Source of the DNA: Eledone cirrhosa
Taxonomy: Eukaryota
DNA length: 64,000 nucleotides
Direction: 5' to 3'
Assembly (NCBI GenBank): GCA_964016885.1
Contig: OZ024742.1
Span: 201,004,001-201,068,000, forward strand
How positions within the stretch are numbered: the first letter of the stretch is position 1; each line of letters opens with the position of its first letter. The position numbers were made by a program, and so were the translations under genes. Below are positions 1,772 to 64,000 of the stretch, one piece after another. The notes below the pieces were generated by a model. The model was not told where the DNA came from. It saw nothing but the letters and a program-made list of their open reading frames with translations, and ran no database searches.

Positions 1772-1776
<5 letters not shown>

Positions 1777-2292
1777 AAAGAATAGAGGTGTAACACACAA
1801 GTTATTATATATTGGTAAACGGAATAGAAAATGCTGACAAATTGTTCACAGTTGAAAAATGGTTTAATTAGGAATAAAAGAGTATTAGTGATTGTATGGG
1901 TTAGTATTCAGTAGTGGTTTTAAGTTTTTAAGTTTTTACCGGTTGCGCATTTCTAAATGCTTTTCAAAAATAATTTTGAGATAGAGTGTCCGTGCTGTTT
2001 GCTCTGATCTGATTAGTTTTGGGAATTCTACCTGTTTTTATGTTAAAAAAGTGGCTCCAGCGTTATTTTTGTGTTGCAAAAATGCTTGTGGTCAAAACAA
2101 TTTTGATTGGTCGGTAGAGGTCATGTGAATGTAAAAAGTTGATTTTGCGCCAAGACTGTTTTTATGTTAAAATGTTAAAAAAGTGGCTCCAGCAAAAATT
2201 ATTGGTCAAAACAATTTTGATTGGTCGGTAGAGGTCATGTGGATAAAAAATTCGTTTTGCGCCAAGATTGAGAAATGACTCTTTCACAACAA

Positions 2293-2365
<73 letters not shown>

Positions 2366-2604
2366 TGTGTGTGTAGTAGTAGTAGTAAGGTGTTCGATGC
2401 TGCAACAATGGCCAGCAGCGATGTGTGTCAAATGGCTATTAAGATAAGTGTGTGTGTGTGTGTGTGTGTATATATAGCAGAGTCATTCGAAGGTCAAAAG
2501 TTATTTTTCAGCTTTTGTCTTATACGGAGAAGTGCGTGTGTGTGTGTGTGTGTGTGTGTATAAGTCTCTTTGTATGTTGATGTACGCGTGTGTATGTGTT
2601 TGTG

Positions 2605-2636
<32 letters not shown>

Positions 2637-4223
2637 GGTGGACCAGTATTTTTTTCCCCCTGGTGTACATTATTCGATTTTTTCAGTAAAATCGGTTCTC
2701 TTAATAGAACATCAAAAATCTTAACAATAAAAGGTGTGAAATGATATTCACTATATATATATACACATACACATATTCACTACATATATATATATATATA
2801 TACATATATACATACATATATATGCACATATATTTTTTTGTATTGCACCATAGAGCATGTGTGTTTACGTGTGTCATTGTGTTTATATGTGGGTAGAGAT
2901 GTGTGCTGATGTAGGTATGTATGTTGACGTGTGTATGTTGTGGGTTCGTCTTAGGGAGAAGTGTTTAGACGGGGTCCGTATTTGTTAATGAAGTAAGATT
3001 CCTTGCTGATGCGCTGGGTGTGGGTGGCATTATCTTTAAATTTGTAGAGGGGAATGATTCTGAAGTTGGGATGATTTTGGGCGGCACAGGTATCAATGTG
3101 TTCACTCAGTGGTATTTTCCTGTATTCCCGTATTTTAATTTGGGATCTATGGACAGTCATGCGTTGGCGGAGGCTGTTTTTGGTCTGGCCTATGTATTGT
3201 TCTCGACAACCTGAACAAGTTAATACATATATTAGATTTTCTGATGCACATGTGAAATTGTGTTTTACTATAAAACGTTGTCCATCTTTGAAATAGAATT
3301 CCGAACCCTCTATTAGGTTGATGCAAATGCCACAGTTGGGTCTATCGCATTTTTTTACTGTTGGTTTCGTTGTTATGGTTGGCAGTACTTTGGCATGTGT
3401 TAGGATGTTTTTCATTGACTTGGATTGTCTTTTGCTCTTTATGATATCGTGTGTTCGTAGAATTTGGTTCATTCTATGGTCCTTTTTCAATACAGGGATG
3501 TTCTGGAGGATGGTGTCAAAGGCCTCATTGTTGAGGGGGTTGTGTGTGGAGATGTATGGAAGAGCTTTTAGTTTTGGTTGATTTACTTTAGGGTGTCTAA
3601 GGTCCTGGGTACTGAGTTTTAGGGCACGTTGGATTCCATTGTCAATTAGTGATGCAGGGTAGTCCCTGCCTATGAGTGTGTCCTTTAGTTCTTGTAGCCG
3701 TAAGTAGCAGATGTTTTTATTGGAGACTATAGTACAGATTCTCTTGGCTAAGTTGTAGGGAATATTAATTTTAACGTGTCTAGGGTGGCAAGAGTTGAAG
3801 GGGAGGTATTGCTTGGAGTCTGTGGGCTTGTAGTATATGTCTGTTTCTATTTTTTTGTTATGGATCTTAATGAGGATGTCGAGGAAGGGGAGTCATTTCT
3901 CAATCTTGGCGCAAAACCAATTTTTTATCCACATGACCTCTACCGACCAATCAAAATTGTTTTGACCAATAATTTTTGCTGGAGCCACTTTTTTAACATA
4001 AAAACAGGTAGAATTCCCAAAACTAATCAGATCAGAGCAAACAGCACGGACACTCTATCTCAAAATTATTTTTGAAAAGCATTTAGAAATGCGCAACCGG
4101 TAAAAACTTAAAAACTTAAAACCACAACTGAATACTAACCCATACAATCACTAATACTCTTTTATTCCTAATTAAACCATTTTTCAACTGTGAACAATTT
4201 GTCAGCATTTTCTATTCCGTTTA

Positions 4224-4228
<5 letters not shown>
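1772..4228 (-). mobile_element. 5'-truncated Penelope-like element (Neptune-type) with an inverted copy of its 3' end, in (TA)n
   Basis: 3890-4228 is the reverse complement of sequence within ~1810-2281, which also carries an internal partial duplication; an RT-thumb/GIY-YIG frame lies between; both outer ends abut (TA)n. Confidence 0.85.
2951..3889 (-). pseudogene. PLE RT thumb + Cys linker + GIY-YIG endonuclease (5'-truncated, frame open)
   Basis: Frame of ORF 2951-3490 stays open to 3889: PFLDILIKIHNKKIETDIYYKPTDSKQYLPFNSCHPRHVKINIPYNLAKRIC...KCDRPNCGIC...NLIYVLTCSGCREQYIGQTKNSLRQRMTVH...E...YGPRLN. The CxxxxCxxC linker is typical of Neptune-clade PLEs. Confidence 0.9.
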
Positions 4229-4305
<77 letters not shown>

Positions 4306-12451: not shown

Positions 12452-15400
12452 ATGTTCTTCTGGTTTTATAATACACAAAGTTTTGCCAATAGAGAGAGAG
12501 TCGGTTTCTAACATAGACACAAGACGCTCTCATTGGAATTTACACATCAACTAGGTAGATATGTATGGATGCATGCATGCATGTGTAGTATGGATGTTAT
12601 TGTATGTGTGAATGTGTATGTTTTGAGTTGTATGTGTGCATGTGTATATGCTTTGTATCTGTACATGTGTATATGCAGTTATCAGATGCAACATTTTTGG
12701 AATGTTTTACATATTTTTACTGTTCAATTAATGGATTTTACTTGTATTTTCCTAACTAGTTGTGTTCTTTCTGTTCCTGTGAAGCCTAGCTTCTCAAGAT
12801 TTGTATTGAGGCAGTTACTAACATATCCCAGTGCCCCAATAATCACAGGCATAAATCTGAAGGTGTAATCAGGGTGGAGTATCTGCAGATTTCTCATCAG
12901 TTCTGCATAAATATTCTCCTTTTCACTAATCTTTGATATTATATTGGCATCTGCTGGGCAGCTAATTTCCACTACTGTGCATGTTTTATTCTCCCTATCC
13001 CATATCATAATATCTGGTCTGTTATGCCTGCATTTTATTGGGGTTTTTACTGGAACATTCCACCAGTACTCTTTCATATTATGTATATGGATGTCTTCCA
13101 CATTGTTGTAGCTTTTAATGTGTTTATTATCGGGGCTATCTTTTTTACGAACTGCATTGTAGAGTGTTTTGGCCACTACATCATGCCTCATAGGTAGATA
13201 GTACCGGGATGACATCTTTGGACAGCTGCTGATGACATGGGTGATATCCTCGATGTTAGTTCTGCAGAGTCTGCACTTGTTATCACATCTAGGTGTTTTG
13301 CCTGCATCCCTATCTCTTTTGTGAATCAGGTATTTTGTGCTAATCTCCTGTTCCTGCATTGCAAAAGCGTATCCTTCAAAGTGGGAGCCAATATAGCAGT
13401 TGTTGGTCCAAGATAGACTACTTTCTTTATCTATATTACTCTCAGCTTCCTGGCAGCATATTCATGCATGAATTTTTGCTGATAGACATGCAGTTTTTCA
13501 TCCATGGATTCACTGCGATACTGTTAAGCGACATCCCTGGGTGTGAGTTTTTGATTATCACAAAGGGAATATCTCTCAAGTAGTTGCTTCCCAACTCTCA
13601 TGATCTTATTTGTTTCATGCAGATAGACTTGTTCGAGAAACGGGCTCCTACGCTTCGAGGTTCGTAGATGTTTTCGGAGAGATATGATGCGACATTCAAA
13701 TGTTGTCTGGACTGATGTTAGGCCTCTGCCTCCCTGTTTACGTTTCAAGTAAAGGCGGTCTATATCACTGTTGATGTGGAAGTTTCCGGTGTTGTTCAGT
13801 ATTTTTCGAGTTCCAACATCAACTGCTCAGATTTCGTCTATCGTCCAATTGAGTATTCCAAACGTTGGTGTTAGGACAGGCACAGCAAACACATTGTGAG
13901 CCACTGTTTTGTTTTGCGCAGAGTTCCTATGACCAGATCTTTCTTAATCAGGTGTAGTATTCCCTGGTTACGCGTTCTTTATTACAGATACCATTATAGG
14001 ATATGTTCTCATCTATTCCCAGGTATCTGTAGCAGTACTCATCAGATATCGGTGAAACAGTTAGACCATTGATGACAATGTTGCTAGATTGGGTTGTTGT
14101 TTTTCCCCGCTTTACAGTCATGTATGAGCATTTATCTTGGTCAATCTCCATTCCTATATCCTTTGAGAACGTTGTAACCAGGTCAAGATTTTTTTTCATC
14201 CCATCCATGTTCTTGACATAGAGTTTCAGATCGTCCACAAAGAAATTATGGGTTAGGTTCGTATTTCTGTCCTCCTGTGAGCCAATGATGTATCCCTCAC
14301 ATTTCTTGAGCAGAAAGGACAAGGGGTTTAATGACAATATGAGCAATATCACAGAGAGACTGTCCCCCGAAATATACCCCTGCAATATTTTATTTTATCA
14401 GTGAAAATAGAGTCTTCCCTCTCTGTCTTTAACCTTAGGATAGTAGCCAAAGAAGAAGACAGCCTCTTTATGGCTCTGACAATAATGTCTGGGACTTTAG
14501 GAAGTTGGAGGGCCTCTATCATTCAAGAGTGGAGAACAGAATCGAAATCTTTCCTGTAGTCCAGCCAGACTGTAGCCATATTCCTCCTAAGCTGTCGCAC
14601 CTCCGACATCGCAGTTTTATTGATTAGGAGTTGTTCAGCACATCCCCAAACCTCTTTCTTTCCAGCTTCTTGTTCATCTGTGATGATGTCATTATTTTCA
14701 CAGTGATCTTGGAGGAATAGGTTCATGCAGGCTGTATACATCTTATACTACAGGTTCTGGCATGCAATGGGGCGGTAGTGTTTTGCCAAGTGGGTGTCTT
14801 TGTTGTTGGGGACCAGTAACGTTTCTGCTAATGTCAACAATTCTAGTATAAGTGTATCTCCCTTAAGAACTTGTTGGTAGAGGTCAGTAAGATACCTCCG
14901 ATAGAATATTAGTTTTGTGTACCAGTAGCCGACAATTATGTCTCTTCCTAGTGCTTTCTTATCTTGGAGTTTTCCTATCACAGTCTCAAGTGTACCCTCA
15001 CTTATTTCGTATGTTTTTGTTGTAGTGTAGGAGCAATAGTTCTTTCGGATTTCTCTTCGCCACACTGCATCTTGGTTGAAATTCTTCTTTTCACCCCATA
15101 TTTTTCTCCAAAAGGAATCTATGTCTTTCTTATTTTGCCCTTCATATCTCTATAGACTGATGTTTGGTTTCGTCTGAATCTTTTATTAAGCACTTTATGA
15201 CTTGTTCTTCTTTTTGGTAAATATCATATTGGTTAAGAGTGTGGGACTGGCTTTGTGCAGTGCCTTTGCTCACTATAAAAGCTTCACGGCACAGGCATTG
15301 CTTTATATCTGTAGATCTCTCTGCACTTGTCGTCACATGGTACCATGAGCCCAGCACTATGTGTCAATAATTGTCACAAGTGTAGTGTGTTTACCAGAGT

Positions 15401-44645: not shown

Positions 44646-45040
44646 TTGTTGTGAAAGAGTCATTTCTCAATCTTGGCGCAAAACCAATTTTTTATTCACA
44701 TGACCTCTACCGACCAATCAAAATTGTTTTGACTACAAGAATTTTTGCAAATTGGAGCCACTTTTTTAACATAAAAACAGGTAGAATTCCCAAAACTAAT
44801 CAGATCAGAGCAAACAGCACGGACACTCTATCTCAAAATTATTTTTGAAAAGCATTTAGAAATGCACAACCGGTAAAAACTTAAAAACTTGAAACCACAA
44901 CTGAATACTAACCCATACAATCACTAATACTCTTTTATTCCTAATTAAACCATTTTTCAACTGTGAACTATTTGTCAGCATTTTCTATTCCGTTTACCAA
45001 TATATAATAACTTGTGTGTCACACCTCTATTCTTTTAACT
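44448..45040 (+). mobile_element. Solo 3' segment of the PLE family at 1772-4228
   Basis: High similarity to 3890-4228 and to the reverse complement of ~1772-2680; flanked by (TA)n. Confidence 0.85.
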
Positions 45041-46511: not shown

Positions 46512-46776
46512 TTACTCCATTTTCCTTGTTGAAGATGGCAAAGGCTGATTTGAGGGAGATTTGGCTGCTATTGTTAGCAGTTCTAGTGACCACGCTGGGG
46601 ATTTATTTTTGCCTGATTATATTGTTGTCGTTGGCGTTAGTTGTAATGTTTCGGTTTCGCCTCATGTTAACTCTCACCCCGAAGACCAATTATCACAAAG
46701 TATTTCAGACATGACAATCACGTCTATTTTTTTCTGTATACTGTGTACCACTTAGACAATATTATCTATATACAAG

Positions 46777-46962
46777 AGCGGTGGATTGGCAGTATCAGTA
46801 GAGGGTCGGACGCCATGCTTTCCAGCATAGTTACGTCCCTTTACGATCTAAGTTCAAATCCCGCCGAGGTTGACTTTGCCTTTCATCCTTACGAGGTCGA
46901 TAAAATAAAGTACCAGTAATGCACTGGGTAATTGCTGGTCTTGTGCCTAAGGTAGAAACAAT
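46777..46962 (+). mobile_element. tRNA-type SINE with 19-bp target-site duplication
   Basis: attatctatatacaagagc at 46761-46779 and 46961-46979. Confidence 0.9.
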
Positions 46963-49198
46963 TATCTATATACAAGAGCTTAGTTTCAGAGAGATTGATC
47001 TGTTGCTTCTCGTTGATGTTCAGTCCTGACTGAGCGGTACCATGATCAAAGACATTCCAACATAACCATCTCGTCCTTAATCTAGACACATTACATTCAT
47101 AACCACTTTAAACAATGTGTCTCTTTTTAGACAAAAAGAGTGTAGTTTGATAACACTTAGTTGTTATTTTTCGATGTTTATGTACAGATAAGCCAAGATC
47201 AAGCTGACTCATGCTCAATGATTTAATACCTAAATCTATAAGGATTCTTTATCCTGAAACAGCTCACTTAGGACTACATATTTCAATATGTCCTTCTTTA
47301 TACAGAGATTATAGTCCTCTGACGAATTGGCAGATACACTTTAATGTCTAGCACAGAGACGTGTTGTTTTATCTTTCTGCCTGTCCTACCACAACTACAG
47401 TGGCCTGTAATCTTCGGAGAAGTCACGCCGATCTCAAACCACCTTCAGTGCTTAATTTTCTAATCCCTGCACTGACCTCTAGACACAAACTTCCCTACCT
47501 AAATGTCAGCCTTTATGGAATCCCTTCTTTGCTTATATTTCCCCCTATGCGTCGACATGTAACACTTAAAATACAATACAAATTGCATCAATCTACCGGT
47601 CTCAGAAGCACATTTTTACAGATCTACCAAATTAAATAACAAAAATGTAGACTGTGATCGATTTAGCTACCACTTCTATGGTATAGAATGAACACGAAGA
47701 AATTCCCTTATTGGCAGATCATGATCACCGCAGTTTTTAAGTCCATTTTCTCATGCTCGAATGGAGCTTATCTTGGTGTCATCTGGTGTTAAATGACTGG
47801 CAGTCCAGTCAATCGCATAGTTAAATTCCAGTTGATGCTGCTGATAGTATATATTTCAGTTGATTTGGCTAGAGCAATGTGAAATGAAGCACCATTCTCA
47901 AGGATACATCGTCTTCCCCACTGCAGAGATCACGCCCATGACTTTACGATCATTAAATCAACATCGTATTCCCCTACTCACACGATTTCACCCAGTGGTT
48001 AATATAACTGAATATAGCTGAGCTGGTAGTGAATATACATTTTATTCAATAAATATATTATGGTGTCTAACTATCTTTGCTCTCTCTATTTTGCATGGAT
48101 AGTTACATGAGTAGTTACGTGTGGCATTGAATTAGAAACATTGATTATTTTGGTAATCTATAAACTATTGTACCAGTCTAGCGGGTTAGATTGACAAAAT
48201 TGTTAGGGCATTGATCGCATTATTTGTTCTGGCTTTCTGCTCTTTGAGTTCAAGCTGCGTCATGGTCAAATTTATCTTGTATTTCGAGGGCCTTTAAAAC
48301 AAATTCTCAGTCCAGTGTGGTAGATTGGCAGGATAGTTAGAGCGTCGGAAGAGCTGCCTTGTGGAGTTGTTTGTTCCACTCCTTTGAGTTCTGAGTTGAT
48401 ATTTCACTCTAGCCTATTTCGGTGGTTGAATTCACACGCCAACCATTTGACTACTCCATTGTAAGCATTCTGACCAGATCTCTGGTTTGAAAATATCTTA
48501 CTCTCTCTCTAACAACAGTCTCGGAGGTCCTGCTATTATATACTCATTGCTATTATATCCTTGACGAAATACAAAAAAGTGGAAAAAAAAAGAAATGTTG
48601 TTCCGAACAATACTTGTGTTTAAAATAAATGTTGTTGCTACTGTAGTTGTTGCTTTTGGTTTACAAACTCAGGTCAGCCAAGGAATATGAATTAAAGAGA
48701 AAGAGTCGATCATTGGAGTGGACCAAGGAAACAACATTTCCATCTATCTTTCCGTCTGCTCATCGCAACTCTTGGCACTCTGGGTCAGATTAGCAAAGCA
48801 TCACATCTGACACTTTAATTCCACCAAACAATAGTTCTCTGGACTGGTTTATTAAGGTCGAGAAAATAAAGTGCAAAGTTGACCTTGGCGGGATTTGAAC
48901 TCAGAGCGCAGTTATCCGGAACAAATAGCGAATCATTTAATGTGACGTTAATGACTCTGTCATAATGAAATGTGTGAAGGGTTAAACTAAAATCTCTTGT
49001 GAGGTAACAGTTATTCATAGGTGTGATGCATGCTGGAGCGGTAGGCTTTTTTACGGCGTTTTTATGGCATTTTAAATCCTTGCGGAAAACATCTCCTCTC
49101 CAGGTCTCAATACTACAGATTTCTTCCAGAGAGGGATAGAGAATAAGAGAATGGAAGTGAGAAAGAGATATCGAGTAAGTATCGATCCCAGTAATTGA

Positions 49199-51025: not shown

Positions 51026-51094
<69 letters not shown>

Positions 51095-51214
51095 TATAGA
51101 CATAGAATATTCGAAAATATTCTGTATGTTTATAATAAACATTTTGAAGACCTAATCGCTATAGAATAGAATACGTCACGTATTACAATTAGATTCTCGA
51201 TAAAAGCAAGGGAA

Positions 51215-51257
51215 GTAATCTACGCGTTTCATTCTTGTTAGAATTCATCAGGACTAC
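51215..51257 (-). ncRNA. Minimal type I HHR (first of 9 minus-strand copies, every 310 bp)
   Basis: Reverse complement of gtagtc CTGATGA attc-taacaa-gaat GAAA cgcg TA gattac. Confidence 0.9.
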
Positions 51258-54063
51258 ATATCCAGTGCTTTTATCGAGAATGACACAGCTAGAGACTTAT
51301 AGAATACTTAGCTGTGTACAGGAACTGGTTTGAAAGAGCGGTTGCCGGTCCGGCAGAAATTAGAAATTGGAATAAATGCTCTGAAATAGCGATATATATG
51401 TGAATATAGACATAGAATATTCGAAAATATTCTGTATGTTTATAATAAACATTTTGAAGACCTAATCGCTATAGAATAGAATACGTCACGTATTACAATT
51501 AGATTCTCGATAAAAGCAAGGGAAGTAATCTACGCGTTTCATTCTTGTTAGAATTCATCAGGACTACATATCCAGTGCTTTTATCGAGAATGACACAGCT
51601 AGAGACTTATAGAATACTTAGCTGTGTACAGGAACTGGTTTGAAAGAGCGGTTGCCGGTCCGGCAGAAATTAGAAATTGGAATAAATGCTCTGAAATAGC
51701 GATATATATGTGAATATAGACATAGAATATTCGAAAATATTCTGTATGTTTATAATAAACATTTTGAAGACCTAATCGCTATAGAATAGAATACGTCACG
51801 TATTACAATTAGATTCTCGATAAAAGCAAGGGAAGTAATCTACGCGTTTCATTCTTGTTAGAATTCATCAGGACTACATATCCAGTGCTTTTATCGAGAA
51901 TGACACAGCTAGAGACTTATAGAATACTTAGCTGTGTACAGGAACTGGTTTGAAAGAGCGGTTGCCGGTCCGGCAGAAATTAGAAATTGGAATAAATGCT
52001 CTGAAATAGCGATATATATGTGAATATAGACATAGAATATTCGAAAATATTCTGTATGTTTATAATAGACATTTTGAAGACCTAATCGCTATAGAATAGA
52101 ATACGTCACGTATTACAATTAGATTCTCGATAAAAGCAAGGGAAGTAATCTACGCGTTTCATTCTTGTTAGAATTCATCAGGACTACATATCCAGTGCTT
52201 TTATCGAGAATGACACAGCTAGAGACTTATAGAATACTTAGCTGTGTACAGGAACTGGTTTGAAAGAGCGGTTGCCGGTCCGGCAGAAATTAGAAATTGG
52301 AATAAATGCTCTGAAATAGCGATATATATGTGAATATAGACATAGAATATTCGAAAATATTCTGTATGTTTATAATAAACATTTTGAAGACCTAATCGCT
52401 ATAGAATAGAATACGTCACGTATTACAATTAGATTCTCGATAAAAGCAAGGGAAGTAATCTACGCGTTTCATTCTTGTTAGAATTCATCAGGACTACATA
52501 TCCAGTGCTTTTATCGAGAATGACACAGCTAGAGACTTATAGAATACTTAGCTGTGTACAGGAACTGGTTTGAAAGAGCGGTTGCCGGTCCGGCAGAAAT
52601 TAGAAATTGGAATAAATGCTCTGAAATAGCGATATATATGTGAATATAGACATAGAATATTCGAAAATATTCTGTATGTTTATAATAAACATTTTGAAGA
52701 CCTAATCGCTATAGAATAGAATACGTCACGTATTACAATTAGATTCTCGATAAAAGCAAGGGAAGTAATCTACGCGTTTCATTCTTGTTAGAATTCATCA
52801 GGACTACATATCCAGTGCTTTTATCGAGAATGACACAGCTAGAGACTTATAGAATACTTAGCTGTGTACAGGAACTGGTTTGAAAGAGCGGTTGCCGGTC
52901 CGGCAGAAATTAGAAATTGGAATAAATGCTCTGAAATAGCGATATATATGTGAATATAGACATAGAATATTCGAAAATATTCTGTATGTTTATAATAAAC
53001 ATTTTGAAGACCTAATCGCTATAGAATAGAATACGTCACGTATTACAATTAGATTCTCGATAAAAGCAAGGGAAGTAATCTACGCGTTTCATTCTTGTTA
53101 GAATTCATCAGGACTACATATCCAGTGCTTTTATCGAGAATGACACAGCTAGAGACTTATAGAATACTTAGCTGTGTACAGGAACTGGTTTGAAAGAGCG
53201 GTTGCCGGTCCGGCAGAAATTAGAAATTGGAATAAATGCTCTGAAATAGCGATATATATGTGAATATAGACATAGAATATTCGAAAATATTCTGTATGTT
53301 TATAATAAACATTTTGAAGACCTAATCGCTATAGAATAGAATACGTCACGTATTACAATTAGATTCTCGATAAAAGCAAGGGAAGTAATCTACGCGTTTC
53401 ATTCTTGTTAGAATTCATCAGGACTACATATCCAGTGCTTTTATCGAGAATGACACAGCTAGAGACTTATAGAATACTTAGCTGTGTACAGGAACTGGTT
53501 TGAAAGAGCGGTTGCCGGTCCGGCAGAAATTAGAAATTGGAATAAATGCTCTGAAATAGCGATATATATGTGAATATAGACATAGAATATTCGAAAATAT
53601 TCTGTATGTTTATAATAAACATTTTGAAGACCTAATCGCTATAGAATAGAATACGTCACGTATTACAATTAGATTCTCGATAAAAGCAAGGGAAGTAATC
53701 TACGCGTTTCATTCTTGTTAGAATTCATCAGGACTACATATCCAGTGCTTTTATCGAGAATGACACAGCTAGAGACTTATAGAATACTTAGCTGTGTACA
53801 GGAACTGGTTTGAAAGAGCGGTTGCCGGTCCGGCAGAAATTAGAAATTGGAATAAATGCTCTGAAATAGCGATATATATGTGAATATAGACATAGAATAT
53901 TCGAAAATATTCTGTATGTTTATAATAAATGCTATTTCAGAGCATTTATTCCAATTTCTAATTTCTGCCGGACCGGCAACCGCTCTTTCAAACCAGTTCC
54001 TGTACACAGCTAAGTATTCTATAAGTCTCTAGCTGTGTCATTCTCGATAAAAGCACTGGATAT

Positions 54064-54106
54064 GTAGTCCTGATGAATTCTAACAAGAATGAAACGCGTA
54101 GATTAC
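54064..54106 (+). ncRNA. Minimal type I HHR (first of 6 plus-strand copies, every 310 bp)
   Basis: Stem I gtagtc/gattac; core CTGATGA (54070-54076); stem II attc/gaat; GAAA (54091-54094); palindrome ACGCGT; predicted cleavage after GUA at 54100. Confidence 0.92.
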
Positions 54107-55816
54107 TTCCCTTGCTTTTATCGAGAATCTAATTGTAATACGTGACGTATTCTATTCTATAGCGATTAGGTCTTCAAAATGTTTATTATAAACATACAGA
54201 ATATTTTCGAATATTCTATGTCTATATTCACATATATATCGCTATTTCAGAGCATTTATTCCAATTTCTAATTTCTGCCGGACCGGCAACCGCTCTTTCA
54301 AACCAGTTCCTGTACACAGCTAAGTATTCTATAAGTCTCTAGCTGTGTCATTCTCGATAAAAGCACTGGATATGTAGTCCTGATGAATTCTAACAAGAAT
54401 GAAACGCGTAGATTACTTCCCTTGCTTTTATCGAGAATCTAATTGTAATACGTGACGTATTCTATTCTATAGCGATTAGGTCTTCAAAATGTTTATTATA
54501 AACATACAGAATATTTTCGAATATTCTATGTCTATATTCACATATATATCGCTATTTCAGAGCATTTATTCCAATTTCTAATTTCTGCCGGACCGGCAAC
54601 CGCTCTTTCAAACCAGTTCCTGTACACAGCTAAGTATTCTATAAGTCTCTAGCTGTGTCATTCTCGATAAAAGCACTGGATATGTAGTCCTGATGAATTC
54701 TAACAAGAATGAAACGCGTAGATTACTTCCCTTGCTTTTATCGAGAATCTAATTGTAATACGTGACGTATTCTATTCTATAGCGATTAGGTCTTCAAAAT
54801 GTTTATTATAAACATACAGAATATTTTCGAATATTCTATGTCTATATTCACATATATATCGCTATTTCAGAGCATTTATTCCAATTTCTAATTTCTGCCG
54901 GACCGGCAACCGCTCTTTCAAACCAGTTCCTGTACACAGCTAAGTATTCTATAAGTCTCTAGCTGTGTCATTCTCGATAAAAGCACTGGATATGTAGTCC
55001 TGATGAATTCTAACAAGAATGAAACGCGTAGATTACTTCCCTTGCTTTTATCGAGAATCTAATTGTAATACGTGACGTATTCTATTCTATAGCGATTAGG
55101 TCTTCAAAATGTTTATTATAAACATACAGAATATTTTCGAATATTCTATGTCTATATTCACATATATATCGCTATTTCAGAGCATTTATTCCAATTTCTA
55201 ATTTCTGCCGGACCGGCAACCGCTCTTTCAAACCAGTTCCTGTACACAGCTAAGTATTCTATAAGTCTCTAGCTGTGTCATTCTCGATAAAAGCACTGGA
55301 TATGTAGTCCTGATGAATTCTAACAAGAATGAAACGCGTAGATTACTTCCCTTGCTTTTATCGAGAATCTAATTGTAATACGTGACGTATTCTATTCTAT
55401 AGCGATTAGGTCTTCAAAATGTTTATTATAAACATACAGAATATTTTCGAATATTCTATGTCTATATTCACATATATATCGCTATTTCAGAGCATTTATT
55501 CCAATTTCTAATTTCTGCCGGACCGGCAACCGCTCTTTCAAACCAGTTCCTGTACACAGCTAAGTATTCTATAAGTCTCTAGCTGTGTCATTCTCGATAA
55601 AAGCACTGGATATGTAGTCCTGATGAATTCTAACAAGAATGAAACGCGTAGATTACTTCCCTTGCTTTTATCGAGAATCTAATTGTAATACGTGACGTAT
55701 TCTATTCTATAGCGATTAGGTCTTCAAAATGTTTATTATAAACATACAGAATATTTTCGAATATTCTATGTCTATATTCACATATATATCGCTATTTCAG
55801 AGCATTTATTCCAATA

Positions 55817-56054
<238 letters not shown>

Positions 56055-56540
56055 CATAATATATAATATATTCGGATACATATATATATATTCATACATA
56101 TATTTAGAAATATATACACACATGTTCATACACACACACAAACACAAACCCACACACACACAAACACATATAAAGAAGATATATATATTATATAATAGTG
56201 GACACAGCAAGGCCGAATGGTGAAGTAATACGCCTCGCAAACATTAGGTCCCGGTTTCGATCTCATTGCTTGGCATCTTGAGTAACTCTCATTTACTAGA
56301 AAGAAAACTGATTAGAAAACCCTGGAATGGAATGTGCATGTATTCAATTGGTCAGCCTTTTTCATACTGATTCGTCCTGAGATTTCCTTTTAAGGTTCCT
56401 GTGTCTGTGAAATGCTCGGCCACATATAAGGTAATTTCACAGGCAGGCTCTTTCGTTGAGCGAAAAATGAGATTCATTATGTATAGGAATATATGTGCGT
56501 GTCATATTATTAAGGGTGTATTATTATGTATGTATATCGA

Positions 56541-57205
56541 GGGCGGTGGGTTGGCAGTATCGGTAGAGGGTCGGATGCCATGCTTTCCAGCATAGTTACG
56601 TCCCTTTCCGATCTGAGTTCAAATCCCGCCGAGGTTGACTTTGCCTTTCATCCTTACGGGGTCGATAAAATAAAGTACCAGTAATGCACTGGGTAATTGC
56701 TGGTCTTGTGCCAAAAGTAGAAACAATTATGTATGTATATCGAGGGCGGTGGGTTGGCAGTATCGGTAGAGGGTCGGATGCCATTCTTTGACGCATAGAG
56801 TTACGGCCCTTTCCACTCTGAGTTCAAATCCCGCCGAGGTTAACTTTGCCTTTCATCCTTACGGGGTCTATAAAATAAAGTAAAATAAAGTACCAGTAAT
56901 GCACTGGGTAATTGCTGGCCTTCAGCCAAAAATAGAAACAATTATTATGTATGTATATATTGGCCTAAATCACAAACCATTATCATGTATATCAGGGCAA
57001 TGGATTGGTAATATCGGTAGAACGACGCACAACACGCTTTGCGGCATAGTTACGCAGCTTTTTGCTCTGAGTTCAAATCCCACCGAAGTTTGCATTGCCT
57101 TTCATCATTACGGGATTGATAAAGTGCCAGTAATACACTGAGGTCGATTTAATTAGCTATCCCCTTTCCTTCAAATTGCTGGCCCTGTGTCAAAACTAGA
57201 AACAA
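56541..57205 (+). mobile_element. Three tandem tRNA-type SINE copies
   Basis: Heads at ~56541, ~56744 and ~56995, with the repeated spacer attatgtatgtatat. Confidence 0.85.
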
Positions 57206-58334
57206 TTATTATGCATGTATATACAGCCGGATCAATTGGAGGGGGTTGCACCTGACAGAACCCGCTGGAATGAATTTTTAAGGGCTTTGTCTCCACGACT
57301 CTCTCAGGAAGAAGAAGAAGAAGAAGAAGACGAAGATGGTTCATAATAATAGTTTCTTATATAGGCACAATGCCATCAATTTTGGGGGAGGGGAAAGTCG
57401 ATTAAATCGACCTCAGTGCGTGACTGGTACTTTATTTGAACGGCCCTGTAAGGATGAAAGACAAAGTTAACCTCGACGGGATTTGAACTCAGACTGGAAA
57501 GGGCTGTAACTCTATGCCACAAAGCATGGTGTCCGACGTTCTACCGATACTGCCAATCCACCGCCCTGGCGGGACTAATAATAATAACAGCAATATATAT
57601 CACATTCACCATTCCTCACCTGGAACCACACAATTCTCGTGAGCATAGAGAAACAAGCTAACCTACATGATTTTTATCGATTGGAGATTGAATTTAATCT
57701 AGAAACACCAGAAAATAGCAGCACCAAATTCTTCCGAATCAATGAAACATGGTCAGTGTATTAGTGTACAGGAAATTGATATGGAAGTAAATCTTTGAGG
57801 TTGTAAATTACAATATTAAACGAAATTAAGCAGAGACGGTAATAATTAGTCTCAAGTCTGAATAATTGGAGGAAAGACAGTTTTCAGAGTAATATATGTG
57901 TTAGTAGCTTTGGTAAAACTGGAATAATCTATAATAGTTTCTACTATTATTGATAATGTTCATGTTGCTGTTGTTAGTGTTTGGTTGTCATTATTGTTGT
58001 TGGAGTTTATGATTTAGTTTTTGATTTATTTGTTGTTGTTGTTGGAGTTTATGAATTAGTTATTAATTTATTTGTAGTTGTTGTTGCTGCTGTTTTTGTT
58101 GTTTATGCTGCTACTACTGTTGTTGTTGTTATTTAGACTCATATCAGCCTTCATTAAGCGAACTTTATCAAAATATGGCAGTTGTGATCGTTACTTTACG
58201 GACCGCACACCAATGTGTATAAAAATACGTTATCCCATATTTATTGTATTTTTAAAGATAATAATGTGAGTGGTTTGAGGAATTTGGCGGCTATTTCGAG
58301 AAGCGTCTTTCTATCGATCCACTTAGACAAGGAA

Positions 58335-58610: not shown

Positions 58611-59955
58611 GAGAGAGAGGGGGTCAGAGAGGAAGAGGAGAAAGAAAAGGGTAAGAGTGAGAGAGAGAGAGAGAGAGGAAGAAATAGAGGAAGAGAGTGG
58701 GGGATGAGAGAGAGAGAGAAATACATAACTAACATCACAGTTGTTACAGTAGCAGTAGTAGTAGTAGTAGTAGTTAAAGTCATTGTTAATAATAATTGTT
58801 TCTACTTTTGGCACAAGGCCAGCAATCACCCAGTACATTATGGTACTTCATTTCAAAGACCCCGTATGGATGAAAGGCAAAGTTAACCTCGGCAGGATTT
58901 GAACTCAATATATAAAGGGCCGTAACTATATGATGCAAGGCATGGTGTCCGACGTTCTACTGATACTGCCAATCCACCGTCCTGACAGGATTAATAATAA
59001 TAACAGAAATACAAATCACATTCACCCTCGGCGGGATTTGAACTCAGATCGTAAAGGGACGTAACTATGCTGGAAAGCATGACCGATCCTCTACCGATAC
59101 TGCAACAATAATAGTAATGCCGTTGTTATTTTTTATGGAGACATAAGAGTTATGTTTTATGGATTCTAGTAGAAACAACAACACTCACTCAACACAAGAA
59201 CAAACAAATTCACAACAAACCCAACAACATTCACAACAAAACCAACAAGATTCACAACAAACGCAACAAGATTTACAACAAACACATTTACAACACACAC
59301 ACAATATTCACAACAAACACAACATTCACAACACAGACAACAACATTTACAATAAACATAACGTTAACAACAACACAACAACATTCACAACACACACAAC
59401 AACACTCACAACAAACACAACAGCATTCACAACACACACAACAATATTCAGAACACAAACACAACAACAATCACAACAAACACAATGTCATTCAGAACAC
59501 ACAACCCCATACAAAGCAAAATCCAAGGAAAATGGCGGAAACGTTTCTTAAAGACGATTTTTTTACCTCATTTTCAAGTGAATAGAGAAGATTTTTTTCT
59601 TTGAAGCCATCGTAAGAATTTGATAGCAGAAGATAGCTGCGGGGGATCATAAAATAATAGTTCCCTGCTTATTATCTCACATCTGATCAATCCCTTTGAT
59701 CTATATCGCAACATTTTCTGTTTCCTTTATTTTTGTACTCTTTCATTATTTTATTAGTTTCACTCATTTGTTCGTGGCGGCCATGCAGAGCTTTGAAGGG
59801 AATTTAATCGATCATATTGACTGTAGTACTTTTTTTTTTAATATCTTGCTAGTCTGGTACATATTTTATCGATGGTCTTTTTCGTTATCGAACTGCTAAG
59901 TTATGGGTCATAAACACTCATACAGATGTATATATATATACATATATATGTATAA

Positions 59956-60675: not shown

Positions 60676-60707
<32 letters not shown>

Positions 60708-61007
60708 GTTTCTACTTTAGGCACAAGGCCAGCAATTACCCAGTGCATTACTGGTACTTTATTTTATCGACCCCGTAAGGATGAAAGGCAAAGTCAACCT
60801 TGGCGGGATTTGAACTCAGATCATAAAGGGACGTAACTATGCTGGAAAGCATGGCGTCCGATCCTCTACCGATACTGCCAATCCACCGCCCTTATATATA
60901 TATATATAATGGATATAGAACGGAGTTTCTGCAATTTTCGTCTACCAAATTCTACTCATTAGGCATTAGTAATCAAGAGGCTATAGTAGAAGACACTTGT
61001 TCACGCA

Positions 61008-62111: not shown

Positions 62112-62640
62112 CAAACACGCAAATGTATACTCATCCACACTAACACACATACACCCGCGTGCACATATATTTACACATACATCCATATAAAAGAAAAATC
62201 CTAACATAAATGTTAGTAATACTAATTGTTTCTACTTTTGGCACAAGGCCAGCAATTATCAAGTGTATTACTGGTACTTTATTTTATCGACCCCGTAAGG
62301 ATGAAAGGCAAAGTCAACCTCGGCGGGATTTGAACTAAGAATGGCAAGGGCCGTAACTCTATGCGTCAAAGCATAGCGTCCGACCCTCTACCGATATAAT
62401 GGTTTCTGAATTACGCACAAGGCCAGCAATTTTGGGGGAAAGGAAAGTCTATTAAATCGACTCCAGTGCATTGCTGGTGCTTTATTTTCTCGACCCCGTA
62501 AGGATGAAAGGCAAAGATAACCTCACCGGGATTTGAAATCAGAACGTACAGAACCATAACTCTAAGCTGTAAAGCATGGTATCAGACGCTCTACTGATAC
62601 TGCCAATCCTCCATCCTAATAATAATAATAGTATTAATAA

Positions 62641-62696
<56 letters not shown>

Positions 62697-63105: not shown

Positions 63106-64000
63106 TACTTGAAATTTGCTTGGAGGTGGTTGAGCCTTCCATAGGCTCGTGGACACAACATAGTTCACAGGAATATTCTGTGTGATATGGTGTGGGACAA
63201 GGCTGGACTTTTGAATTACAGATATAATTCATTATTTTCTGAGTTCAAATCCCGCCGAAGTTAGCTTTAGCTTTCATCATTATGGGGTCGATGATATAAA
63301 ATACCAGCAACTAGCTGGGATAGGGGTGGGGTCGATTTAATCGACTTCCCCTCCCCCATCATTATTGGCCTTGTGCCTAAATCAGAAACCATTATTTTGT
63401 CAGATAAATAGACTGAAGCTACCTGATAGAAAGTGTGTTGCTCTAGCACATAGTGCTCAGCCAAGAATCGAACCAATGAACTTACAATCGGGATTTCAAC
63501 ACTTTAATAACTAAGCCACGTACCTTTACAACTAAACCAAGTGCCTTAAATAAGTACACAAGTCCCTGGATTAATTACAAAATCTCTTGGAACAATGAAA
63601 TGTGTAGAAACATCAAATAAAGGCAACAGCTTTTTTGTGTGAAACTGAAGTCTGTATTTGCTAAAGTATCAGCTAATGTATTTACTAAGGTATTTACTAA
63701 TGTATTTGTGAAGGAGGACAGCGGTTTGGCAGAGTTAGAACGTCGTAAGAATACTTTGTGTTATTTGTTCCGCTTCTCTACGACATGAGTTCGAATACAA
63801 CCGAGGTCAACTATGCCTTTCCTTCTTTTGAAATCGATTAATTAAGTAGTGGTTCAGTACAGGGGTTGATGGTTTATCTATATCTACTTCTCCCTATCTC
63901 TTTCTTTGTCTACCTCATAAGAAGAACATTTTCAGAACTGAAGTATGGGCTTTGCCAGGATTAAATGTCCAGGACACACTGTTTGTCATTATGGCACTCC

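What the first reader, a model, noticed from the sequence alone, without database searches (positions are those of the whole stretch)
53871..53940. Single asymmetric inversion junction makes the array a ~1.9-kb palindrome with both RNA 3' ends facing out into (TA)n
Seen: the left arm stops at 53929; one extra T (53930) precedes the inverted arm, which starts in a different phase. This leaves a 60-nt spacer between ~1885-bp arms (51986-53870 vs 53931-55815). HHR-sense strands diverge from the junction and end at AT-like points joined to (TA)n. Inference: both ends of a cut (TA)n target primed cDNA synthesis on the same circular or multimeric RNA (twin priming) and the two cDNAs were joined. A read-through transcript would be a long dsRNA, a substrate for ADAR or Dicer.
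Basis: partly seen in the sequence, partly recalled or inferred. Interest (0 to 1): 0.75.

Follow-up and report, generated by a model that had tools for sequence, protein, structure and literature searches.

The report
Back-to-back ribozyme repeat, Penelope-type insertion
This mirror-image junction is the normal form of a large family of self-cutting-RNA repeats that sit back-to-back in TA microsatellites, with one arm ending at each of two fixed points, likely because a Penelope-type retrotransposon enzyme copied one small circular RNA onto both ends of a cut chromosome.

Summary
In detail: a 310-nt hammerhead array turns round once at 53930 (arms 51986-53870 and 53931-55815, 1 mismatch in 1885, 60-nt spacer). 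It is not a one-off. Of 171 own-genome insertions examined, 151 are head-to-head. In all 145 with both ends visible, one arm ends at site A (unit position ~300-309) and the other at site B (mostly 25). The ~34-nt offset is the known Penelope-like-element (PLE) 'tail'. Junction phases are random, so this spacer and the extra T are ordinary. The two arms of an insertion share one sequence variant (115 of 130 loci; about 9% between loci), and either arm may be longer, which argues against fold-back and later rearrangement. Most likely a PLE reverse transcriptase primed both cut ends on one mostly circular retrozyme RNA. Added here: recurrent A>G changes fixed through whole insertions, a possible ADAR imprint (post hoc, partly replicated). 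The scan reported the same architecture earlier on other pieces of this genome. Read support for this one junction and RNA expression are untested.

The parts
51026..51090 (.). left (TA)n target remnant
   Evidence: TRF array 51026-51091; base 51090 matches TA repeat, not unit C301
51091..53929 (-). arm A: ~9.2 units of the 310-nt retrozyme, RNA sense on - strand; 5' end at unit position 252, outer end at site A (~300; 301-309 is ambiguous with the TA repeat)
   Evidence: one single-unit variant at 52068
51104..51123 (-). 8-bp tetraloop hairpin (unit 268-287) just upstream of site A in the terminal unit; present in every unit; candidate RT-binding signal (inferred)
   Evidence: sequence; two compensated pairs against sister-family copies
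53695..53737 (-). innermost type I hammerhead of arm A (8 more at 310-nt steps, 5' ends 53427 to 51257)
   Evidence: motif scan
53871..53930 (.). 60-nt spacer of the closest palindrome register; belongs to arm A except the last base
53930..53930 (.). single T at the head-to-head junction that fits neither arm
   Evidence: junction unique in the genome
53931..55815 (+). arm B: 6.1 identical units, RNA sense on + strand; 5' end at unit position 1, outer end at site B (25)
54064..54106 (+). type I hammerhead, predicted cut between 54100 and 54101; minimal palindromic helix III; 5 more at 310-nt steps to 55614
   Evidence: Rfam HH9 E=0.0033, 23 bits, below gathering 52
55781..55815 (+). PLE-type 'tail': the ~34-35 nt between start sites A and B, present at this end only
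   Evidence: same one-sided tail in a GIY-YIG element in this window
55816..56006 (.). right (TA)n target remnant

Best explanation
This is one young insertion of a protein-free hammerhead repeat (non-LTR retrozyme) whose two back-to-back arms end at two fixed sites ~34 nt apart, likely because a Penelope-like-element enzyme cut both strands of a (TA)n and used both DNA ends to copy the same, probably circular, 310-nt RNA. Steps: (1) inferred: array transcripts self-cleave and circularise to monomers. (2) Inferred from PLE biochemistry: a dimeric RT/GIY-YIG protein supplied in trans binds near the hairpin at 268-287 and nicks both strands of (TA)n. (3) Shown as a pattern: one end starts at site A, the other at site B. 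(4) Inferred: each RT runs round the circle a variable number of times, which gives uniform arms of unequal length that stop at random phase. (5) Shown as a pattern: the two cDNA 3' ends are joined head-to-head with a few nt of microhomology or a few added bases (here one T). If only one end is extended, a single-armed copy results (20 of 171).
For: Architecture: of 171 insertions, 145 are complete A+B head-to-head, 6 are two-armed with one end cut off by the fetch or an N gap, 20 are single-armed; no A+A among 71 A-picked and no B+B among 65 B-picked complete loci. TA flank at 139 of 149 A ends and 142 of 145 B ends. Shared template: arm haplotypes identical in 72 of 83 loci versus 594 of 6806 between-locus pairs; held-out set 43 of 47 versus 242 of 2162. 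In L132 both arms switch haplotype after two units counted from the outer ends, although the arms are 934 and 5477 nt. Independent synthesis: A arm longer in 67 of 139. Joining: microhomology of 2 nt or more at 68 of 111 non-insert junctions versus 17.6% by chance. Monomer bottleneck: 59 haplotypes among 160 fully covered loci, with single-unit variants at only 4.3e-4 per base; 113 single-unit variants whose in-register place is covered by the other arm are not shared, against 2 loci that share one; 5' ends are not enriched at the ribozyme cut (6 of 174, 6.2 expected). None of 40 fixed variants hits the 12 catalytic core positions. PLEs are present: RT and GIY-YIG in one ORF in L176, L180, L171, L174. 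L176 and L183 (GIY-YIG only in the piece scanned) are head-to-head with one short and one long end, and so is a GIY-YIG element at window 1772-4229 with a 34-nt tail. Literature: a PLE protein extends both target strands, starts at two adjacent internal RNA sites that define the tail, and is predicted to be a dimer (PMC11167929).
Against: No autonomous partner was identified by sequence: in 50 GIY-YIG loci no PLE end matched the unit, and the L183 terminal repeat aligns no better than shuffles (55 versus mean 45.6, max 65). No RNA data, so circles and cleavage are unshown. Shared haplotypes cannot tell one molecule from two siblings of one source; L116 carries two template states. L132 and L054 fit a linear or multimeric template better than a monomer circle. 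Arrays can also expand after insertion (variants repeating every 6-7 units in L110 and L242). In vitro the anole PLE showed no difference in start site between strands (PMC11167929), so the strict one-A-one-B rule is not explained by known biochemistry. Loci were picked by one end and come from two chromosomes only. Junction overlaps come from BLAST ends and may be slightly inflated.
Confidence: 0.55

Rival explanations
1. Same double-ended PLE priming, but each end copies a different RNA molecule from the same source locus, held together in a dimeric RNP.
For: Explains shared haplotypes if both RNAs come from one uniform array; L116 needs two template states; these hammerheads are thought to work as dimers (PMC4209133 passages); the PLE protein is predicted to be a dimer (PMC11167929).
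Against: Gives no reason why the two ends always use different start sites (145 of 145). A>G changes that recur on several backgrounds are fixed in both arms, which is simplest if one modified molecule served both, although they could be inherited from an earlier round.
Confidence: 0.2
2. The template is mostly a linear multimeric transcript of an existing array, read from two internal start sites; no rolling circle.
For: [quoted passage not shown]
Against: Only 2 loci share in-register variants, against 113 unshared testable ones; 59 haplotypes are each fixed through whole insertions, which needs a single-unit bottleneck. The test is weakened if most single-unit variants arose after insertion.
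Confidence: 0.15
3. Fold-back or self-priming: one cDNA (or an antisense RNA) turns on itself and copies itself back, as proposed for PLE palindromes in PMC3846280.
For: Explains identical arms and head-to-head polarity; a few junctions are near-symmetric (L126, L199, L234).
Against: The copied arm cannot exceed its template, yet either arm is the longer one (A longer in 67 of 139; here 2848 versus 1885); an A-ended arm cannot supply the tail; 5' offsets are uniform; L132 variants are in outer-end register, not hairpin register.
Confidence: 0.05
4. The inversion arose later by DNA rearrangement, or this junction is a chimeric-read or assembly artefact.
For: Palindromic tandem arrays are hard to assemble; no read or contig is shown to span this particular junction (one search lists none).
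Against: Neither process would give one polarity in 151 of 151 two-armed loci, fixed different ends, or different unique flanks on the two sides. Contigs from three public runs of one sample hold many other head-to-head joints of this unit at low depth (30 joints, 15 shown). Unit counts per arm may still be off.
Confidence: 0.05

Closest known systems
Metazoan non-LTR retrozymes (Cervera and de la Pena 2020, PMC7229834; Li, Clavereau and Pollet 2026, bioRxiv 10.64898/2026.07.22.740005)
   Same: Tandem 150-450-bp low-GC units, each with a type I hammerhead, no protein; proposed circRNA template and PLE machinery.
   Different: Described as direct tandem repeats: 'inverted', 'orientation' and 'rolling' have no hits in PMC7229834. 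Here most copies are head-to-head with fixed, paired ends. Li et al. favour local amplification by unequal crossover; here arrays look born as arrays.
Endonuclease-positive Penelope-like elements (PMC3846280, PMC8557442)
   Same: Head-to-head inverted 5'-truncated copy, 30-40-bp tail at one end, (TA)n target bias, hammerhead in the terminal repeat.
   Different: No ORF; both arms are long concatemers of one unit; the short-end/long-end pairing is measured here on 145 loci; arm lengths contradict the published self-priming proposal.
Poseidon PLE of Anolis in vitro (PMC11167929)
   Same: Both target strands extended; two adjacent internal RT start sites near a stem-loop downstream of the hammerhead, equal to the tail.
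   Different: No strand difference in start site in vitro; here each insertion uses one of each. Starts here overlap AT/TA letters, whereas the paper reports no homology to the target.
L1 twin priming (recalled, not read here)
   Same: Two target-primed cDNAs joined head-to-head with microhomology.
   Different: L1's second primer lands at variable internal sites and copies a non-overlapping part, with poly(A) at one end; here both starts are fixed, adjacent and overlapping, with no poly(A).

Membership tests
non-LTR retrozyme | tandem units of ~150-450 bp, GC under 45-50% | tested here: met
   310 nt, 34% GC
non-LTR retrozyme | type I hammerhead with full core in every unit | tested here: met
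   15 motifs in the array; core, helices I-III by pattern; Rfam HH9 weak hit below gathering
non-LTR retrozyme | no protein, no LTR | tested here: met
   no ORF of 130 aa or more in the array; PBS/PPT not searched
non-LTR retrozyme | dispersed, recently mobile copies | tested here: met
   2513 exact 49-mer hits; 991 exact B ends; 461 exact A ends of one variant; 97-100% identity
non-LTR retrozyme | transcription, self-cleavage, circular monomers | not testable with these tools
   no RNA holder listed; only indirect genomic signs
PLE-mobilised insertion | head-to-head inverted 5'-truncated copy | tested here: met
   151 of 171
PLE-mobilised insertion | 30-40-nt tail at one end only | tested here: met
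   A end shows the target base at 301 in most loci not picked on A, B at 25 in 123 of 145: ~34-35 nt (26 nt if A is read at 309)
PLE-mobilised insertion | microsatellite (TA)n target | tested here: met
   281 of 294 ends; biased by picking on a TA-joined end
PLE-mobilised insertion | sequence homology to the terminal repeat of an autonomous PLE | tested here: inconclusive
   none among 50 GIY-YIG loci of more than 10,000 candidates
autonomous PLE | RT plus GIY-YIG ORF | tested here: not met
   no ORF in the array
L1-type twin priming | poly(A) end and variable, non-overlapping second start | tested here: not met
   fixed adjacent starts, overlapping arms, no poly(A); definition recalled

The most novel reading that the evidence does not exclude
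Each insertion records one circular ribozyme RNA copied by two reverse transcriptases of a PLE dimer, one from each of two fixed start sites, which would explain both the inverted structure and the tail of Penelope-like elements. In addition, host ADAR edits the circle's stems and these edits are written into the genome in every unit of both arms, so RNA editing drives the family's sequence change (A>G: 22 minimum origins versus 6 T>C and 4 C>T; 5 of 11 A>G sites recur on several backgrounds versus 1 of 29 other changes).
Probability: 0.4. Interest if true: 0.75.

Novelty: new variant of a known kind. Interest (0 to 1): 0.55.

Why it matters
How PLEs make their tandem and inverted structures is stated as open in PMC8557442 and PMC11167929. 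About a thousand near-identical, protein-free copies give a natural dataset with clear rules: one arm per start site, one template haplotype, free arm lengths. These rules reject simple fold-back and predict the outcome of an in vitro assay. They also give genomic support for rolling-circle reverse transcription of animal retrozyme circles, so far only proposed. Transcription through such an insertion from either side meets the antisense arm first, so each copy would be a hairpin source that could silence the family (inferred, untested). The single junction flagged is ordinary within the family.

Tried and rejected
DNA search of the own genome with the unit found nothing because common words are skipped; exact patterns were used instead. 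Rfam at gathering threshold: no hit in the window. No RNA holder listed: no evidence either way on expression. Contigs of 4 runs laid on 53560-54300: depth in the junction bin is non-zero in 3 runs of one sample and zero in the fourth, but no listed piece spans the junction; read support for this junction stays open. The empty-site allele cannot be tested with short contigs across long (TA)n. Partner PLE not found; a hammerhead similar to the unit's, near three PLEs, is a separate small palindromic insert. 5' ends at the ribozyme cut site: rejected. A C or T insertion at unit 172-174, fixed in 10 of 111 loci, lies 2 nt or more from the cut and is treated as a subfamily variant, not a ligation scar. 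The site-level contrast of A>G versus T>C between fixed and single-unit variants was significant in the first 111 loci (10:4 versus 6:22, p=0.003) but not in the 60 held-out loci (8:5 versus 6:9, p=0.45); pooled p=0.012. The 5' neighbour preference of the A>G sites (5 of 12 after U) is not distinct from background.

Full report
Observation. The window holds a 310-nt tandem array from about 51091 to 55815 that turns round once. The left arm (9.2 units) reads on the - strand, the right arm (6.1 units) on the + strand. Numbering the unit from 53931, the left arm's inner end is position 252 at 53929, one T at 53930 fits neither arm, and the right arm begins at position 1. The stated arms differ at 1 of 1885 positions. 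Each unit carries a type I hammerhead: 6-bp helix I, full core, short helix II, minimal palindromic helix III, predicted cut after position 170. Rfam scores it weakly (HH9, 23 bits against 52). The monomer folds better than all of 100 shuffles (z -4.4). The junction is unique in the genome.

It is a family pattern. An exact 49-mer of the ribozyme has 2513 hits in the 3.0-Gb genome; exact B ends number 991. I examined 171 insertions: this one, 9 picked on the ribozyme, 90 picked on the A end and 71 on the B end, all others from the first listed hits on two chromosomes (segmented in 23, 34, 62). Dropped before counting: hits under 95% identity (sister families), a duplicate copy in L091 and a separate neighbour in L244; L039 and L040 are one locus. 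Result: 145 complete head-to-head with one A end and one B end, 6 two-armed with one end cut off, 20 single-armed (15 A, 5 B, one of these at an N gap); no A+A, no B+B; six two-armed loci have extra inner pieces. B is position 25 in 123 of 145 (range 14-32). A is ambiguous between 300 and 309 because the unit reads ATATATAT there, but in most loci not picked on A the base at 301 is the target's, as here. The offset of ~34 nt equals the PLE tail.

Junctions. Inner ends fall at random phase (174 ends, KS p=0.22), are not enriched at the ribozyme cut, and the offset between them is uniform. Of 145 simple junctions, 94 overlap, 17 are blunt and 34 have added bases, 9 of them a single base; overlaps of 2 nt or more are 61% of non-insert junctions against 17.6% by chance. 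So the 60-nt spacer and the extra T are typical. Contigs of three public runs of one sample, library type not on record and possibly the assembly's own source, show many other head-to-head joints of this unit. This particular junction is not shown to be spanned.

Template. Arms of 150 nt or more were compared, leaving out their first 5-6 and last 14 bases. The two arms of a locus have the same haplotype in 72 of 83 loci, and in 43 of 47 held-out loci; between loci the figures are 594 of 6806 and 242 of 2162. The A arm is longer in 67 of 139 and lengths correlate mildly (rho 0.33), which rules out one arm being a fold-back copy of the other as the general route. There are 59 haplotypes among 160 fully covered loci, while single-unit variants are rare (196 in 459 kb). 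That points to a single-unit bottleneck per generation, as rolling-circle copying of a monomer would give. Exceptions matter. L132 and L054 show unit-specific variants in both arms in register from the outer ends, which fits one multimeric RNA read twice. L116 shows two template states. L110 and L242 show repeats of 6-7 units that may be later duplication.

The enzyme. The genome has many GIY-YIG loci; of 7 ORFs scanned, 4 have both RT and GIY-YIG hits. L176 and L183 are head-to-head with one short and one long end, and a truncated GIY-YIG element at window 1772-4229 is too, with a 34-nt tail. No PLE among 50 loci shares sequence with the unit, so the partner is unidentified. A hairpin at unit 268-287, just upstream of site A, is kept in sister families with two compensated pairs (9 sequences, covariation above all 500 shuffles; related rows, so indicative only). 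It is a candidate recognition signal, by analogy with the stem-loop start in PMC11167929.

Possible editing imprint. Among variants fixed through whole insertions, outside four positions used as lineage markers, A>G has 22 minimum origins against 6 T>C (p=4e-4) and 4 C>T; 5 of 11 A>G sites recur on more than one background against 1 of 29 other changes (p=0.004). The five recurrent sites are paired in the predicted circle. Single-unit variants show the opposite balance (A>G 12, T>C 31, C>T 36). Tolerance of G-U pairs alone would favour C>T as well and does not fit (22:4 versus 12:36). In held-out loci, 3 of 14 new origins repeat a change already seen, and all 3 are A>G. Against: the test was devised after seeing the data, the simpler site-level contrast did not replicate (p=0.45), neighbour preference is not distinctive, and template switching can create apparent recurrence. 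It is a lead for ADAR action on the RNA intermediate, not a result.

What is known. Li et al. 2026 (bioRxiv 10.64898/2026.07.22.740005; abstract to discussion read) argue that animal retrozymes are non-autonomous PLE derivatives. Cervera and de la Pena 2020 (PMC7229834; passages) show circles, propose RT copying into tandem cDNA and mention editing as a possible source of heterogeneity. PMC4209133 (passages) covers dimeric hammerheads. Arkhipova 2013 (PMC3846280; passages) reports head-to-head as the most frequent PLE arrangement, a 31-bp tail on one inverted repeat and a self-priming proposal. Craig 2021 (PMC8557442; passages) adds (TA)n bias and calls the mechanism undefined. Frangieh 2024 (PMC11167929; main text and methods) shows both strands extended from two internal starts. 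Searches (listings only, apart from the papers named) found no paper on head-to-head retrozyme arrays, an obligate pairing of the two start sites, or editing fixed in retrozyme copies; the library lacks most subscription journals. Earlier notes of this scan, seen after my reading was formed, report the same architecture on other pieces of this genome and in other genomes; none matched the editing words.

Verdict. Real; one member of a retrozyme family inserted in the PLE manner. The parts are known; their combination, the strict end-pairing rule and the shared-template evidence make a new variant that bears on an open mechanism. Double-ended PLE priming in some form is about 0.9 likely; one circular molecule as template about 0.55. 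Interest 0.55.

Noticed in passing
window 1772-4229: Truncated Penelope-like element (GIY-YIG ORF piece 2954-3892, - strand) inserted head-to-head in (TA)n, long end at 1772 and short end at ~4229, 34-nt tail; another end fragment with tail at 44657-45040.
   Followed up: partly
L135:4317-5119, L142:2449-2871, L075:4655-4909, L057:3418-3918, L217:3209-3332: Older sister families (72-84% identity) that share the hairpin, site A and tail region; those viewed (L135, L142, L075) are also inverted in (TA)n; their ribozyme region is diverged or degenerate.
   Followed up: partly
L180:8000-8210, L184:2600-2830, L176 near 1100-1290: A different small palindromic insert with a related hammerhead core sits in (TA)n next to PLE ends.
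   Followed up: no
L116, L132, L054: Insertions with unit-specific variants: a haplotype switch after two units in both arms (L132), an A136G switch within one arm (L116), a first-unit variant in both arms (L054).
   Followed up: partly
L061, L067, L097, L100, L101, L106, L120, L124, L125, L137: A C or T insertion in hammerhead helix I (unit 172-174) fixed through the units of both arms.
   Followed up: partly
all loci, single-unit variants: T>C exceeds A>G on the RNA-sense strand (31 versus 12), as RT wobble errors would give; strong in the first set, weak in the held-out set.
   Followed up: partly
window 46763-46972, 56523-57570, 58762-59011, 60692-60904, 62223-62645, 63220-63849: Many copies of a short interspersed repeat in both orientations, including a 203-bp tandem pair at 56523-56952.
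   Followed up: no
window 13951-14394 (-): Reverse-transcriptase fragment (Pfam RVT_1, E 4.5e-9), probably a LINE remnant.
   Followed up: no
L229: Two-armed insertion with ~250 nt of other sequence between the arms, both of which start at unit position 117.
   Followed up: no
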